NCBI GenBank assembly: GCA_964016885.1
Contig: OZ024745.1
Coordinates: forward strand, 85,622,001 to 85,686,000
Source of the DNA: Eledone cirrhosa
Lineage: Eukaryota
Length of the DNA: 64,000 nucleotides
Direction: 5' to 3'
Shown here: positions 2,149 through 63,875 of the stretch, piece by piece
Position numbering within the stretch: position 1 is the first letter of the stretch
How the letters are laid out: each line of letters starts with the position of its first letter
Translations under genes and position numbers: made by a program
The notes under the pieces: model-generated
The model's input: only the letters and a program-made list of their open reading frames with translations
Databases searched by the model: none
What the model was told of the DNA's origin: nothing

Positions 2149-2600
2149 TGCTTTGTCAGTGTTGAACACAAGGGCAACGATGGTTGCTAAACACTGTACG
2201 GCTTAATTCGGGATGTTTTTTACAAACAAACCGAGTATTATAATAAATGCTCGGTAAATCCATACGCCATACGTGCATGTATATATGTGTGCATGTAAGT
2301 ATATGTATACATACTACTGTACGTATGTATACATATATGTATGTGCGTATACATACTTATATATATATATATTATATATATATATATATATATATTATAT
2401 ATATATTATATTATATATGTATATATATATTATATATATATATATTATATATATATATATATATATATATATATATATATGTTATATATATATATATATA
2501 TATATATATATATATATATATATATATATATATATATATTATATATATATTGTATAAAAAGAAAACACAGCTAAGCATTAAGAGAAGGATTTTATCCATG

Positions 2601-2702
2601 TATTTACGACCGTTTCATTGGTAAGTGCAACCTTATATTGCTATACTGCAAATAGCAGCCACTCAATTATAATTGTTGTTCACAGTCCAAATTTTCAAAA
2701 TA
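2601..2702 (-). ncRNA. Type I HHR, U3-A8 variant (antisense arm copy)
   Basis: Reverse complement of 5564-5665. Confidence 0.6.
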
Positions 2703-3273
2703 GCATGTTACTCTTGAAGTAATTCTTAATATATAGAGAAAAACATTTTTTTGGAATTGTATTTACTATTATATAGAGAGAGAGAAATCAGAAGGTGAGG
2801 GGACAAACGGAATAGTATAGAGAGAGGGGAAGGGGGAGAGGTAGGAAGTAGAGCGACAAACTGAGATGGAGGGAGGGGTAGAGGTGGAAGGATTCCTTGG
2901 TCAGTTTTGATAGCAGACTTCATGTCGTGGAATGTAGTGAGTTAAAGAGAATTAAATTGATCATAGTGGGAGGGATGGATAGAGAGGGAGAGAGAGAGAG
3001 GGGGAGATATAAAGAGATAAATATATATATATATATAAAATAAAGATAAAGATAATAATGACAAAAATAAAAGCAAAGAAGGGGGTGAGAAAGAAGAAAA
3101 GAAAATCTAGCCAAGAAGAGGAGGGAAGGAAGGAAGAAAACGAAGAAATAGAAGAGGAATGAGGGAGAAGAGGGGGATATATGTATTGGTTTTGTGGGTA
3201 ATTAAAAGGGTTTAGATACAACAAGAGGATATAAAGTCTAAGTATATGCAGTTTGTCACTTGGTAGTAAGAGG

Positions 3274-4768
3274 TTAAGGGTTCGATTTGTAGTGCGAAAT
3301 CTTCTCTTTGAGTCTATGGTTACAATAAATTGATCTTTCGATTTTATTGTTGAGTAACTTATTCTTCGAACTCAAGATGTGGAACAGCTCAAGGTCGCAT
3401 AATCGACAGGTTCTCATACCACTCCGATATGGAGGCGCGTTCGATATTTTTTTCCACTTAAGGGTGTATTGATGGTTACTTTCCCTCAGTTGCCAGGTCT
3501 TGTTTGCAAGGGTAGTTACATAACGATGCCGGGAATGTTTCATTGCGTAACGGTGTGTATACCAACGGGCTTTAAATGCATTCCCAGTCGCTCCGATGTT
3601 ATACCATTTCTGGTTTTATGATTCCACTGTGCATTGGTAAACCAGGTTAGACTGCATACATTCGTTATGTAATGGACAGGTTTCAGGTAGGTGGCAGTTA
3701 CAGTTCTTGTCATGGGCAACTTTGGCATTATTGGTGGGCTGCGATGCCTGTACAAGTGTGTTACGTTTTGTTTGCCTATGTGCGGGTAGTTGTGTATTAG
3801 ATATTCTGTTGTTTTCGGTGGTGATTGTATTGTTATTGTTGTAAATTTGTGTTTTGGTGTTGTTATGTATCTTTTTAGCGTTAAGCATCTTAATGTGTGC
3901 CTCTATATTTGGTGCCGTGGAGTAAGATAGTCTAATAGATTTGGTGTTAAGGATTTTGTTGTATCTATGTGAATCTGGAAAGTGCTTATTTATTATTCTA
4001 AAGAAGGTAGAGGGTAGGTTAATACTAATAGAGGTGTTAAATATGGGGTTATACCAAATATATTTTCTACTGCGTGACTTGTTTTATTTCGATGTTGTAT
4101 TTCTATTTGCCGCATACTTTGTAGTTCTATGCGTAAGTGCTTGTGTGCGTGTGTTACCGGAGTTTGTGTTATGCGTGTTCGTGTGCGCTTCACGGAGGCT
4201 TTCATCTATATAATCTACTCTATCTAAGTAGCCTGCCTTGTCTAATGCGGTATTGCAGTATTCTGCATGTTCTTCGAAGATTTGTAGGTTAGACGAGAGG
4301 CGGGAGATCCTAAGGGATATGTTGCGTGGAATGGATTTAATTATGGATAGTGGGTGGTTTGAGTTACAGTTGATGTATGCTAAGTTTTCATTAATCTTGT
4401 GAAAAGGTATCATAAGTCCCGTATTTAGGTTAAGCGTCGCGTCTAGAAAGTTAACGGTTTTAGTGCTATACTCATACGTTATGCTAATGCCTAGTTTCCC
4501 GAGAGTCTTTCTAATATTCTTACGGAGTCTTTCTATGCTCTGGTTATTTAGGTTCTTAACTAGGAGAAGGGCGTCGTCTCTGTAGATTCCACCGTGAAGG
4601 TCGCTAAACTCACTTTGTAAACTATGGGCTATGTAAATACCTACTAAATCTATGACTTGAGCCGAGTCGTTAGCCCCCATCGTGATGTCAAAGTTATTTA
4701 ATCTATCCTTACGTTCCCAATAGGCGTTTTCAAATGTAATTATTGTTTTCCTAGCAGCTAATATGATA
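3274..4768 (-). pseudogene. Frameshifted PLE reverse transcriptase + GIY-YIG endonuclease
   Basis: MGANDSAQVIDLVG, GIYRDD, NFLD, SNHP; linker CNC..CPL..C; C-terminal CRLC..E..LLN..E..C.H. Confidence 0.9.
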
Positions 4769-5563
4769 GCAACTGAGGGAAAGTAACCATCAATACACCC
4801 TGAAGTGGAAAAAATATCGAACGCGCCCCCATATCGGAGTGGTATGAGAACCTGTCGAATATGCGACCTTGAGCTGTTCCACATCTTGAGTTCGAAGAAT
4901 AAGTTACTCAACAATAAAATCGAAAGATTAATTTATTGTAACCATAGACTCAAAGAGAAGTTTCGCACTACAAATCGAACCCTTAACCTCTTACTACCAA
5001 GTGACAAACTGCATATACTTAGACTTTATATCCTCTTGTTGTATCTAAACCCTTTTAATTACCCACAAAACCAATACATATATCTCCCTCTTCTCCCTCA
5101 TTCCTCTTCTATTTCTTCGTTTTCTTCCTTCCTTCCCTCCCCTTCTTGGCTATCTTTTCTTTTCTTCTTTCTCACCCCCTTCTTTGCTTTTATTTTTGTC
5201 ATTATTATCTTTATCTTTATTTTATATATATATATATATATATTTATCTCTTTATATCTCCCCCCTCTCTCTCTCTCCCTCTCTATCCATCCCTCCCACT
5301 ATGATCAATTTAATTCTCTTTAACTCCCTACATTCCACGACATGAAGTCTAATATCAAAACTGACCAAGGAATCCCTCCACCTCTACCCCTCCCTCCATC
5401 TCAGTTTGTCGCTCTACTTCCTACCTCTTCCCTCTTCCTCTCTCTCTATACTATTCCGTTTGTCCCCTCACCTTCTGATTCCTCTCTCTCTATATACTAG
5501 TAAATACAATTCCAAAAAAATGTTTTTCTCTATATATTAAGAATTACTTCAAGAGTAACTTGC

Positions 5564-61070: not shown

Positions 61071-61104
61071 ATATATATATAAATTATATATATTAATATA
61101 TATA

Positions 61105-61243
61105 TGTCAACCTCGGTGGGATTTGAGCTGAGTTCAAATCCCACCGATGTTGACTTTGCCATTCATCCTTACGGCGTCGACAAAATAAAGTACCATTGAT
61201 GCAATGGGTAATTGCTGACCTTGTGCCTAAAGTAGAAACAATT
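61105..61243 (+). mobile_element. 5'-truncated SINE with a small 5' inversion
   Basis: 61105-61127 is inverted to 61132-61155. Confidence 0.75.
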
Positions 61244-61817
61244 ATATATAAATATATATATATATATATATATATATATATATATATATATATATATATA
61301 TATATATATATATATATATATATATATTATTTATATATTATATATATATTATATATATATATCATCTATAAATATATATTATATATATATTATATATATA
61401 TATTATATATATATATTATATATATATATATTATATATATATATATATTATATATATATATATTATATATATATTATATATATATATATATATATTATAT
61501 ATATATATTATATATATATATATTATATATATATATTATGTATATACTATATATATATATATAATATATATATATATATATATATAATATATATAATATA
61601 TATATATATATAATATATATATATATATATATATATATTATATATATATATATATATTATATATATATATTATATATATTATATATATATTATATATATA
61701 TAAATATATATTATATATATATCTATATATATCATATATAAATATATATTATATATATATTATATATATTATATATATATATAATATATATATTATATAT
61801 ATATATATATATATATA

Positions 61818-63875
61818 TTCATTAGTTAAGCAAAACAACACCACAAACTTCACAAGGAAGACATTATTAAAAGATTGTCAACACATTTTAGTTTGATGTA
61901 AGGAATGTAGAGAATAATAATAATAATAATAAAAATAATAATATTATAATAATATTATATAATGTCTCTGAATCTGGTTATAAACAATCAATTTATTACA
62001 TACCTAAATGCCATAGCACAGCAACTCACCATAATAAACTTAACACTAGAACTAGAAATACCTTAGCATGTAGCCAGATTCGCCAGAATTTTAGCAGTAA
62101 CAGCACCTATACAGGGAACTTTAATGGTGGCAGCGGCCTGCTCCCCACTCCAAGTAGCAAACTAAAAATCAACTCTAGAATAGGAATGAGAAATGGGATG
62201 ACAAATAACAAATCCCAGGTAATAATAACCCTAGGAAGGCCCCTACCAACTCCACTAGAACCCCTAGAAGGAATAGACCTAGAAATATCACCTGGCTCAA
62301 CCCACCATTCTCATCTAATCTAGCCACTAATATCCCCAAACGCTTCTTCTCTATCCTATCCAAACACTTCCCCCAACAATAGATATTACAAACTCTTTAA
62401 TAAAAATAACATTAAAATCTCATTCTCCACAACACCTAACCTAGATAGCCACATCGCGTTCAGTAACCATCATAAGCAAAGACAGTATAACTCCCACACC
62501 GCGGTACCACCACCCCTATCAAATACACCACGCCACTACACCAATAATTACTCTAGTAGCACACCTCCCCCATCTAATCCTTCTAGTACGGACCAACCGC
62601 TTAGGTTAAACAACCCTACTCTCACTAACCACAGAAGCAACTGCAACAGCCGTTACCCTAATGCATGCCCATTAAATGGCCACTGCCTGACACCCAACAT
62701 AGTCTATAGGTGCACGGTTGAGACTGCTTCGAATACCAACTCTTATATCGGGTCTACCTCTAACCCTTTTAAGGTACGCTATAACGCGCACTCTTTTTCC
62801 TTCCGAGACCCTAGCAACAGATGTTCCACATCGCTAGCTAGGCTCATTAAAAACCTTAAATTAAACAACGTTCAACATTCACTAAAATGGGATATCGTAG
62901 CTAGGGCCCAACCGTTCAATGGACGAAGAAAATCGTGTGATCTCTGTGTTACGGAAGCATATTACATGACTCTATCACGACCTCTACCGATTAACGATAG
63001 AACGGAGGTAACCATTAGATGTCAACATCGAAGGGCTAATTCCTTCGCCAATAGAGTTTTTGACCCAACTTAGTCATCTAGCCCCATTTCTACTTGCAGC
63101 TAATAAGTTAAATTGCTATGAACAACTCGATAATTATAAGTTACCTCCCCTACATTGTCTCTCAATTAAAAAATTCAAAAACTAGCACTCAACTATAAAT
63201 ACTCACAATCTCTAATCTCTCGAGATGCTACTTCCCCTGGAACCACCCTCTAATTAGTAAGGTAAATATGCCCTTTGGCATCCATCTTGTTATCCATAGG
63301 CAGATCTCACACAATGCAGCCTCGACAGATGAATACTGCTTGATTATGGCTGACAGCTGATGCAACCAAGACACCATAGTAAAAACCAATATATGGAACA
63401 TTATATTATGGAACATTATTTTAATTTATATTCCTTTGAGTTCCGATGAGCCACTCTGTTTTTTTAAATATGTTAATTATTTTCAACTGAACCAGATCAA
63501 TTATGATATATAGTCATCTGATCCAGAAATATTATATGGAGTAGCGAAACAATTGTAAACGGACATTATTATTATTAATATTAATATTATTATTATTCTC
63601 TACATTCCTTACATCAAACTAAAATATGTTGACAATCTTTTAATAATGTCTTCCTTGTGAAGTTTGTGGTCTTGTTTTGCTTAACTAATGAATATTTTCA
63701 GCTCTGCGCACCTAACTTCTGCATGAACCCAGCCACCTAGCTGCTTTCTACTGCATATTGCACATTGAGCACATGCCTTTACGCTTTACCTTCTAACTAA
63801 CTCACCACTCTCTCCTCTCATATCTCCTCTACTATCTCCATCTCTCTCTTTAAGATTGGTTACTCTTGAAATGTG
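61818..63875 (+). mobile_element. Naiad-like PLE (linker+EN ~62170-63073) with inverted arm
   Basis: ITWLNPPF..HFP..CPLNGHC..YIGSTSNPFKVRYNAH..CDLCVTE..CQHR; arms 61818-61930 and 63577-63694. Confidence 0.85.
63440..63560 (+). ncRNA. HHR, U4C variant, long stem II insertion
   Basis: gtt-CCGATGA-gccactctgt...atggagtagc-GAAA-CAATTG-TA-aac. Confidence 0.65.

What the first reader, a model, noticed from the sequence alone, without database searches (positions are those of the whole stretch)
2552..63875. Most insertions are asymmetric fold-backs with both 3' ends facing (TA)n
Seen: inverted arms at 2552/5715, 6021/7037, 9217/10084, 13604/15829, 16501/18740, 18930/24250, 26582/26988, 31280/34594, 35975/37513, 37876/38690, 39852/40117, 47243/53272, 53350/54476, 55560/56537 and 61818/63694. 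One arm carries an extra ~35-180-bp tail. Known: inverted pLTRs occur in PLEs. The arms duplicate the same 3' region, unlike classic non-overlapping L1 twin priming. Inference: both DNA ends of a break in (TA)n prime reverse transcription on separate, tandem or circular templates, and the cDNAs are then joined head to head.
Basis: partly seen in the sequence, partly recalled or inferred. Interest (0 to 1): 0.75.

Follow-up and report, generated by a model that had tools for sequence, protein, structure and literature searches.

The report
Fold-back Penelope-like insertions in TA repeats
The mirror-image inserts are real head-to-head copies of Penelope-like jumping genes sitting in TA repeats, a layout already published for this class, and their strictly one-sided tails suggest that the two halves were likely copied from RNA separately, one from each cut DNA end.

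Summary
Observation confirmed. In each, one arm abuts (TA)n and the other carries a family-specific 35-180-bp tail.

The inserts are Penelope-like elements (PLEs) of at least three lineages: a Hydra-like family with a CxCX5C linker, and two with Pfam GIY-YIG hits. Where orientation can be read, the 3' ends face outwards.

The inverted 5'-truncated copy, the one-sided tail and the (TA)n target are published PLE anatomy (PMC8557442, PMC3846280). A PLE protein cuts and extends both DNA strands from two internal start sites in vitro (PMC11167929). So the pattern is known; these are new members. Earlier notes of this scan reported the same pattern in this genome and in others.

- Sixty fetched genomic copies of two families repeat the one-tail rule, with one exception.
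- The tail sits on the shorter arm as often as on the longer, which single-cDNA snap-back cannot give.
- The two arms share rare variants, so they come from one source.
- In tandem copies each start site lies just before a similar GAGYRC hairpin box.

"Circular template" has no support. "Tandem template" is supported. The mechanism remains inferred. Two pairs (#6, #12) are interrupted and uncertain.

The parts
2552..5843 (.). Fold-back #1. Arms 2552-3493 / 4769-5715; tail 5716-5843 on the right (shorter) copy. The long copy codes on the - strand.
6017..7130 (.). Fold-back #2. Arms 6017-6295 / 6763-7041; tail 7042-7130. Same family as #9.
9218..10246 (.). Fold-back #3. Arms 9218-9412 / 9888-10082 (99.5%); tail 10083-10246.
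13603..15907 (.). Fold-back #4, family F4 (Hydra-like PLE). Arms 13603-14657 / 14777-15830; tail 15831-15907 holds the ACTC...GAGTAC hairpin box. The head-to-head joint is at 14655-14657.
16466..18740 (.). Fold-back #5. Arms 16501-17160 / 18127-18740; tail 16466-16500 on the short copy. GIY-YIG ORF at 17145-17588 (+) with a CX4CxxC linker.
18862..24250 (.). Pair #6. Arms 18938-19333 / 23876-24250 (87.8%); tail 18862-18937. Interrupted by TA tracts and other PLE or tandem sequence, so a single insertion is uncertain.
26468..26989 (.). Fold-back #7. Symmetric palindrome 26582-26989 (83%); tail 26468-26581.
31238..34596 (.). Fold-back #8, family E8. Long copy on the - strand, with weak RVT_1 at 32706-33572 and GIY-YIG at 31808-32764. 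Arms 31279-31965 / 33923-34596; tail 31238-31278 on the long copy.
35885..37516 (.). Fold-back #9. Arms 35971-36479 / 37040-37516; tail 35885-35970 with the ACTC...GAGTGC box.
37712..38690 (.). Fold-back #10. Arms 37875-38175 / 38390-38690 (98%); tail 37712-37874. The distal tail 37708-37796 is repeated directly at 38303-38391.
39787..40117 (.). Fold-back #11. Symmetric palindrome 39851-40117 (93.6%); tail 39787-39850. Same family as #6.
47178..53272 (.). Pair #12. Arms 47246-47374 / 53144-53272 (98.4%), 5.8 kb apart; tail 47178-47245. Several PLE coding pieces in both orientations and two TA tracts lie between the arms, so a single insertion is uncertain.
53348..54548 (.). Fold-back #13. Arms 53348-53454 / 54354-54477 (81.5%); tail 54478-54548.
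55467..56540 (.). Fold-back #14. Arms 55558-55696 / 56404-56540; tail 55467-55557 with the ACTC...GAGTGC box.
61815..63875 (.). Fold-back #15. Arms 61815-61943 / 63567-63695; tail 63696-63875 on the long + copy, which codes at 62287-63031.
117..2361 (.). One inverted partial unit (117-333) followed by 4.7 tandem 428-bp units (333-2361). Its 62-bp tail (117-178) equals the sequence that follows the end point inside the array.

Best explanation
These are insertions of Penelope-like retroelements into (TA)n microsatellite, and each fold-back was likely made in one integration event in which both cut DNA strands primed reverse transcription.

Shown:
- The inserts are PLEs of at least three lineages.
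- The arms are copies of the element's 3' region, with the 3' ends facing outwards.
- One end stops at a fixed internal site X and the other at a second fixed site 35-180 nt further 3'. The stretch between the two sites is the 'tail'.
- The two arms of a fold-back come from one source.

Inferred:
- The GIY-YIG endonuclease, probably as a dimer on the two-fold symmetric (TA)n, would nick both strands.
- One 3'-OH would start cDNA at X and the other at the tail end, on the same RNA or on RNAs of the same locus. In the Hydra-like family each start point lies 5-6 nt 5' of a similar RCUC...GAGYRC hairpin box.
- The two antisense cDNAs, each truncated independently, would then be joined head to head by a template jump or by 0-8 nt of microhomology.
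- When both cDNAs run to the same RNA 5' end, the result is a symmetric palindrome.
For: Identity as PLEs:
- Pfam GIY-YIG is above cut-off in #5 (33.8 bits) and #8 (26.1 bits, against 22.6). RVT_1 in #8 is weak.
- The F4 ORF has YRDD, CxCX5C and GIY..YIG motifs.
- It has 1757 homologues, many about 700 aa long.
- Atlas neighbour clusters carry RVT_1, HTH_animal and GIY-YIG.
- F4-like coding sequence occurs in 12 or more islands of the window.

One-tail rule:
- Window: 16 of 16.
- F4, 21 tail-less ends: 14 have an inverted partner that reaches the tail end and none has a tail-less partner.
- F4 and relatives, 20 tail-bearing ends: 12 have a tail-less partner (one of them probable) and 1 has a tail-bearing partner.
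- Family E8, 20 tail-bearing ends: 13 have a partner ending at X and none has a tail-bearing partner.
- Bystander fold-backs in the fetched flanks: 8 of 8 mixed.
- Mini fold-backs: 7 of 7 mixed.

Against a single snap-back cDNA: the tail is on the shorter arm in 7, on the longer in 5 and on equal arms in 2 of 14 F4 fold-backs.

One source:
- Arm-to-arm divergence is 0-0.8% in 12 of 13 comparisons, against 0.2-2.0% to copies at other loci.
- There are 23 shared rare alleles.
- 33 of 41 arm mismatches are singletons in one arm.

Joints:
- Overlap or gap of -3 to +8 bp in 14 of 15; one joint has a 216-bp filler.
- Contigs of two public runs (one sample) show 188 different head-to-head joints with 1-5 extra letters.

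Start sites in tandem context (L028, L030, L032):
- After X: TAT|TACCC-ACTC..GAGTAC-TTT.
- After the tail end: GT|TATCTA-GCTC..GAGCAC-TTT.
- ACTC pairs with GAGT and GCTC with GAGC in 12 of 12 aligned rows.
- The strict box is present in 6 of 16 tails against 0.23% of control positions. This pattern was defined after seeing the data.

Flanks and literature:
- 25 of 25 genomic fold-backs have TA runs at both ends.
- PMC11167929 (main text read): a PLE protein cleaves and extends both strands, starts at two adjacent internal sites, the tail is the sequence between them, and a dimer is predicted.
Against: - Two-end priming is not obligatory. No inverted partner was found for 7 of 20 and 7 of 20 tail-bearing ends, nor for 3 of 21 tail-less ends.
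- 4 of 21 F4 copies carry an inverted internal fragment without any 3' end (L002, L004, L017, L019). The model does not explain these.
- L032 has tails on both arms.
- Symmetric fold-backs (L005, L016, window #7 and #11) and narrow fold-back zones (about 57-65 nt from X in F4, about 190-220 nt in E8) are also what self-priming predicts.
- In vitro, PMC11167929 saw no difference in start site between the two strands.
- Shared rare alleles could come from arm-to-arm gene conversion after insertion.
- The genomic samples were ascertained through one kind of end, and the genome search skips very common words.
- The hairpins fold only weakly on their own (z -0.7 to -3.7).
- A solo source copy lacks the second hairpin box after its tail.
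Confidence: 0.55

Rival explanations
1. Self-priming (snap-back). One cDNA, or an antisense template, folds back on itself at a short palindrome and copies itself, giving the inverted arm. This is the reading offered for PLE palindromic junctions in PMC3846280.
For: - Symmetric palindromes exist: L005 (5.6 kb, symmetric to the centre), L016 with equal end points, and window #7 and #11.
- Fold-back points cluster in narrow zones.
- PMC3846280 discussion passage.
Against: - A copied arm cannot carry a tail that its template lacks, yet the tail is on the shorter arm in 7 of 14 F4 fold-backs.
- Snap-back predicts like ends, but the ends are mixed in all sets except one locus.
- No perfect palindrome of 8 nt or more lies in the E8 fold-back zone, and the joints differ from locus to locus.
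Confidence: 0.2
2. A symmetric intermediate carrying tails on both arms is trimmed on one side by the element's endonuclease, which recognises the tail in DNA. This is the 'EN-mediated resolution' suggested in PMC8557442.
For: - PMC8557442 passage.
- PMC11167929 reports earlier work in which the Penelope endonuclease needed the tail sequence to cut plasmid copies.
- The end point X is fixed to the base within each family.
Against: - It needs a second, unexplained rejoining to (TA)n.
- It does not explain 'tail-only' inverted stubs (L009, L014).
- It does not explain why the arm lengths are independent.
- A tail on both arms was seen once (L032) among the fold-backs examined.
Confidence: 0.12
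3. The arms are two independent insertions of the same family that landed side by side, in opposite orientation, in a hot (TA)n target.
For: - (TA)n is hit repeatedly in this window.
- Pairs #6 and #12 have TA tracts and other elements between their arms.
Against: - The arms abut directly, with no TA between them.
- They share rare alleles.
- Chance pairs would be tail-to-tail or tandem as often as head-to-head, and would not be mixed with and without a tail in nearly every case.
Confidence: 0.05
4. DNA transposons or Foldback-type elements with terminal inverted repeats that target TA, or palindromes created by assembly or read chimeras.
For: - Long terminal inverted repeats flanked by TA look superficially like Tc1/mariner or Foldback elements.
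- Palindromic chimeras are a known long-read artefact (recalled, from no call).
Against: - Arm length differs at every locus of one family: the 5' limit ranges from position 1 to 2684.
- The arms contain RT/GIY-YIG coding sequence reading outwards.
- None of the 31 window ORFs tested matched a transposase family in Pfam.
- The arms have diverged by up to 18%.
- Head-to-head joints occur in short contigs of two public runs from one sample.
Confidence: 0.02

Closest known systems
Complex insertions of endonuclease-bearing Penelope-like elements: pLTR, adjacent inverted 5'-truncated copy, one-sided 30-40-bp 'tail' (PMC8557442, PMC3846280)
   Same: - Head-to-head inverted 5'-truncated copy.
- Tail at only one end.
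- Frequent 5' truncation.
- Partial tandems: L028 and L030 have pLTR-body-pLTR.
- AT-rich or (TA)n target.
   Different: - Tails here are 35-180 bp rather than 30-40 bp.
- No hammerhead ribozyme reached Rfam's gathering score, and none was among the 150 best listed of 208 matches at E <= 5.
- Direct pLTRs are rare in this window.
Hydra clade of C-terminal-EN PLEs (Craig et al. 2021, PMC8557442)
   Same: - Family F4 has the EN at the C-terminus.
- It has a CxCX5C linker.
- It has only one Cys between GIY and YIG.
- It inserts into (TA)n.
- One named homologue is from a coral.
   Different: - No phylogeny was made.
- Families #5 (CX4CxxC linker, two Cys in the core) and #8 (two Cys, DKG motif) belong to other PLE lineages, yet show the same fold-back anatomy.
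Poseidon PAc of Anolis in vitro (Frangieh et al. 2024, PMC11167929)
   Same: - Two fixed internal RT start sites that define the tail.
- Both target strands are used.
- Tandem transcript as template.
- AT-rich cleavage.
   Different: - In vitro no strand preference for either site was seen. Here the two ends of one insertion almost always use different sites.
- The start sites here lie about 95 nt or more upstream of the first ATG of the ORF, not inside it.
- Each end point here has 3 or more nt of TA-like sequence.
L1 twin priming (recalled; cited in PMC2837659, search listing only)
   Same: The second DNA end primes a second cDNA, and the product is inverted.
   Different: - In twin priming the two segments come from one RNA and do not overlap, because the second primer anneals internally.
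- Here both arms start in the same 3' region and overlap fully.
Metazoan non-LTR retrozymes / tandem PLE-derived repeats (bioRxiv 10.64898/2026.07.22.740005, passages)
   Same: The 428-bp array at 333-2361, with one inverted unit, has the tandem, non-coding, PLE-end-like layout.
   Different: - No hammerhead ribozyme was detected.
- Nothing here shows circular RNA.

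Membership tests
Endonuclease-positive Penelope-like elements | GIY-YIG endonuclease domain C-terminal to the RT | tested here: met
   - Pfam PF01541 in 17145-17588(+) at 33.8 bits and in 31808-32764(-) at 26.1 bits; cut-off 22.6.
- F4: GIY..YIG motif by eye, collinear hhalign to the #8 EN region at E 0.0018 and probability 15%, and Atlas neighbour clusters with GIY-YIG.
Endonuclease-positive Penelope-like elements | PLE-type reverse transcriptase | tested here: inconclusive
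   - RVT_1 scores 20.8 bits, below the cut-off of 29.6, in 32706-33572(-), which also has a DKG motif.
- The F4 ORF has no Pfam hit and no PDB hit.
- It has a YRDD box, and Atlas neighbour clusters have RVT_1 in 40-49% of members.
Endonuclease-positive Penelope-like elements | Inverted 5'-truncated copy and/or pLTR, with a tail at one end only | tested here: met
   Window 16 of 16; genomic copies; pLTR-body-pLTR in L028 and L030.
Endonuclease-positive Penelope-like elements | Hammerhead ribozyme in the pLTR (canonical clades) | tested here: not met
   - Rfam gives 0 matches at the gathering score.
- None of the 150 listed of 208 matches at E <= 5 is a hammerhead; 58 lower-scoring matches were not shown.
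- No CUGANGA in the F4 element.
- This feature is not universal among PLEs (PMC8557442 passage on Naiads).
Hydra clade PLEs | CxCX5C linker upstream of GIY-YIG; internal CCHH cysteines lost | tested here: met
   The F4 ORF has CNCPDRSIC at residue 325 and a single Cys between VIYQ and YIGLT. Families #5 and #8 do not meet this feature.
Hydra clade PLEs | Insertion into (TA)n | tested here: met
Hydra clade PLEs | Phylogenetic placement within the clade | not tested
   No reference Hydra proteins were on hand and no tree was built.
L1-type twin priming products | The inverted and direct segments are non-overlapping parts of one RNA | tested here: not met
   The arms are copies of the same 3' region over 107-1055 bp.
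TIR DNA transposons / Foldback elements | Terminal inverted repeats of fixed extent within a family, and a transposase | tested here: not met
   The 5' limits of the arms differ at every F4 locus. None of the 31 window ORFs matched a transposase family in Pfam.

The most novel reading that the evidence does not exclude
One PLE integration complex fires two reverse transcriptions from a single RNA, one from each strand of the cut (TA)n. Each starts just 5' of one member of a pair of similar hairpins. That would explain several things at once:
- why every fold-back has exactly one tail;
- why 'tail-only' stubs exist: the second enzyme is arrested where the first began;
- why tiny fold-backs dominate: both enzymes run off the RNA 5' end when they start in the upstream pLTR.

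Such a two-headed mode of target-primed reverse transcription has no counterpart in LINEs. It would settle how PLEs acquire inverted pLTRs and tails.
Probability: 0.3. Interest if true: 0.6.

Novelty: new member of a known kind. Interest (0 to 1): 0.4.

Why it matters
How Penelope-like elements integrate has been open since their description. That includes why they leave inverted repeats and a tail on one side. The first in vitro system dates from 2024.

This genome holds very many young (97-99% identical) insertions of several PLE lineages in (TA)n. They follow the one-tail rule almost without exception, and two sequence-similar start signals are visible in tandem copies. That makes the two-end priming model testable, both by a genome-wide census and at the bench.

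As a pattern it is not new. It is the published PLE insertion signature, and this scan has noted it before in this genome and in others.

Tried and rejected
- **Rfam.** No family at the gathering score. At E <= 5 the 150 best listed of 208 matches were AT-rich hairpin look-alikes of miRNA models and no hammerhead; 58 lower-scoring matches were not shown.
- **Pfam.** On 31 window ORFs only three gave PLE hits. The F4 ORF and three full-length homologues gave nothing useful.
- **PDB sequence searches.** The F4 ORF and a 32-sequence profile gave no hit.
- **Protein search.** The search for longer homologues timed out. The default search worked.
- **Structure prediction.** It never finished, so no fold evidence.
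- **Unbiased genome sample.** A search with an internal query failed to sample the family, because very common words are skipped.
- **Window-specific joint.** Contigs of four public runs were laid on the joint at 14655-14657. No listed contig bridges it, which proves nothing.
- **L024 as a fold-back of two different subfamilies.** Rejected: its arms are 96% alike.
- **The 130-200-bp repeat as tail-only stubs.** Rejected: it is a tRNA-derived SINE.
- **Hairpin folding.** The hairpin boxes folded alone gave only weak z-scores.
- **Literature.** No paper in the held library states a two-end priming model for PLE fold-backs beyond PMC11167929.

Full report
**Observation**

The window is G000:C5:85622001-85686000 of a 3.0-Gb genome. 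(TA)n tracts take up 12,044 of its 64,000 bases, with islands of other sequence between them.

Identity is 81.5-99.5% and arm length 107-1055 bp.

One arm runs straight into (TA)n. The other is separated from it by 35-180 bp of non-TA sequence. This holds for 15 of 15 pairs.

If each end chose its form independently, at most half of the pairs would be mixed. Sixteen of 16 therefore has P <= 1.5e-5. Tails are the same within a family and end at the same base (#6 and #11; #2 and #9). They belong to the element, not to the target.

**What the inserts are**

Pfam finds GIY-YIG above its cut-off in #5 and #8, and a weak RVT_1 hit in #8.

Family F4 (#4) has a 476-aa ORF with YRDD, a CxCX5C linker and GIY..YIG motifs. 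Further evidence on it:
- No Pfam or PDB hit.
- 1757 homologues, many about 700 aa long, one named from a coral.
- Atlas neighbour clusters carry RVT_1, HTH_animal and GIY-YIG.
- A collinear but weak profile match to the #8 endonuclease region.

F4-like coding sequence lies in at least 12 islands of the window. Family #5 has a CX4CxxC linker and two Cys in the GIY-YIG core. Family #8 has DKG and two Cys. At least three PLE lineages therefore share the same insertion anatomy.

The coding strand points outwards in #1, #4, #5, #8 and #15. A conserved tail box points outwards in six more.

Not everything in the TA tracts is a fold-back. There are simple 5'-truncated PLE copies and eight copies of a tRNA-derived SINE. 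Pairs #6 and #12 have TA tracts and other PLE pieces between their arms and may not be single events.

**Replication elsewhere in the genome**

I fetched 60 loci.

*F4, sampled through tail-less ends (20 loci plus the window copy).*
- 14 have an inverted partner that runs to the tail end.
- None has a tail-less partner.
- 4 have an inverted internal fragment without a 3' end (L002, L004, L017, L019).
- 3 have no partner, and their 5' end abuts simple repeats.

*F4 and older relatives, sampled through tail-bearing ends (20 loci).*
- 12 have a tail-less partner, one of them only probable.
- 1 has tails on both arms (L032).
- 7 have no partner that I could detect.

*Family E8 (#8), sampled through tail-bearing ends (20 loci).*
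- 13 have a partner ending at X.
- None has a tail-bearing partner.
- 7 have no partner detected.

Eight further fold-backs that happened to lie in the fetched flanks are all mixed. So are seven mini fold-backs seen in a search table. All 25 genomic fold-backs that I checked have TA runs at both outer ends.

These samples are ascertained through one kind of end. The genome search also skips very common words. The figures are therefore conditional, not frequencies.

**Tests of mechanism**

1. *Arm length against tail.* In the 14 F4 fold-backs the tail-bearing copy is the shorter in 7, the longer in 5 and equal in 2. A snap-back copy cannot carry a tail that its template lacks, so each arm had its own access to the template's 3' region.
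2. *Source of the arms.* Arm-to-arm divergence is 0-0.8% in 12 of 13 comparisons. Divergence to copies at other loci is 0.2-2.0%. The arms share 23 alleles that 15% or fewer of the other copies carry. Of 41 arm mismatches, 33 are singletons in one arm. The arms therefore come from one source. Gene conversion between arms could mimic part of this.
3. *Joints.* Overlap or gap is -3 to +8 bp in 14 of 15, and one joint holds a 216-bp filler. Part of that filler matches the element's upstream region.
4. *Independent data.* Contigs of two public runs from one sample hold 188 different head-to-head joints about 57-65 nt from X, with 1-5 extra letters. Word depth near X is at least ten times that of internal parts. 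The window's own joint was not bridged.
5. *Symmetric products and hot zones.*
   - L005 is a 5.6-kb palindrome of two copies that is symmetric to the centre.
   - L016 has equal end points.
   - E8 joints cluster 190-220 nt from X but differ at every locus, and there is no perfect palindrome of 8 nt or more there.
   - Both cDNAs running off one RNA 5' end would explain this. So would self-priming.
6. *Tandem context.* In the 428-bp array the tail equals the sequence that follows X inside the array. In L028, L030 and L032 the F4 tail runs straight on into an 844-bp 5' region that then joins the body. This is a pLTR-body-pLTR layout.
7. *Start signals.* After X the sequence reads TAT|TACCC-ACTC..GAGTAC-TTT. 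After the tail end it reads GT|TATCTA-GCTC..GAGCAC-TTT.
   - Across 12 aligned rows from about seven families or sites, ACTC always goes with GAGT and GCTC with GAGC.
   - The strict box is in 6 of 16 window tails against 0.23% of control positions. This pattern was defined after seeing the data.
   - The lead for this came from earlier notes of the scan.
   - Folded alone, the hairpins are weak.

**Comparison with print**

PMC8557442 (passages) describes for PLEs:
- an inverted 5'-truncated copy next to the 5' end;
- a 30-40-bp tail at one end only;
- (TA)n as the preferred target of Naiad, Hydra and Neptune-type elements;
- a CxCX5C linker in Hydra.

PMC3846280 (passages) describes inverted pLTRs with a 31-bp tail. 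It reads the palindromic junctions as self-priming.

PMC11167929 (main text) shows that a purified Poseidon protein cleaves and extends both strands. It starts at two adjacent internal RNA sites, and the stretch between them is the tail. The protein is predicted to be a dimer. No strand difference in start site was seen.

In three searches I found no paper that states it for fold-backs.

**Verdict**

These are new members of a known kind. The added value is the near-absolute one-tail rule in several lineages, the independence of tail and arm length, the single source of both arms, and two similar start boxes. Together these favour two initiations, one per DNA strand, over snap-back. All mechanistic steps are inferred.

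Noticed in passing
window 11948-12144(-), 27123-27323, 35158-35299, 39332-39534, 40708-40846, 42060-42259, 45855-46054, 61124-61249: Eight copies of a 130-200-bp repeat that looks like a tRNA-derived SINE (a GAGTTCAAATCC B-box-like stretch). Each sits in (TA)n with a fixed 3' end ...GTAGAAACAATTA and a variable 5' truncation, and none has an inverted partner. It is presumably mobilised by a (TA)n-specific reverse transcriptase.
   Followed up: partly
window 117-2361: A 428-bp unit repeated 4.7 times head to tail, preceded by one inverted partial unit. Its 62-bp tail equals the start of the next unit inside the array. Relatives at 80% identity lie at 22555-23430. No hammerhead ribozyme was detected.
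   Followed up: partly
L028:3578-3702, L030:5268-5392, L032:2290-2420; window tails of #4, #6, #9, #11, #12, #14: A conserved box RCUC..(13-16 nt)..GAGYRC-UUU begins 5-6 nt after each of the two insertion end points of the Hydra-like family. A-U to G-C covariation at the closing pair occurs across families. I found no description of it in the papers I read.
   Followed up: partly
Searches (F4: about 57-65 nt from X; E8: about 190-220 nt from X): Very short fold-backs whose two arms end in the same narrow zone are by far the most abundant form. Some joint variants have contig depths of hundreds to thousands, against about 6-18 for the lowest-depth contigs in the same table. Specific fold-backs may therefore have been copied further as units. 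The zone may also mark an RNA 5' end.
   Followed up: partly
L005:1332-6995: A 5.6-kb near-perfect palindrome (99.4%) of two long F4 copies that is symmetric to the central base, with a tail on one side only.
   Followed up: partly
L002:3991-4071, L004:4422-4802, L017:6331-6521, L019:3063-3132: Inverted internal fragments of F4 without any 3' end are joined to the 5' end of a tail-less copy. L004 has a 27-bp duplicated filler. No model considered here explains them.
   Followed up: no
L032:1497-2380: The one fold-back with tails on both arms. Its right copy runs on into the element's 844-bp 5' region instead of into (TA)n.
   Followed up: partly
L005, L007, L008, L015 (F4 positions 1-66): The commonest 'long' F4 copies begin inside the RT, at motif FDIESYY. 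They lack the 844-bp 5' region seen in L028, L030 and L032, yet they are 98% alike. The young burst may stem from a 5'-shortened RNA or from a non-autonomous master copy.
   Followed up: no
window, all 15 arms; L012, L018, L029, L036 flanks: Every end point X carries 3 or more nt of TA-like sequence. Some genomic fold-backs sit in TA runs of only 11-17 bp. Part of the flanking (TA)n may be brought in or extended by the insertion itself.
   Followed up: no
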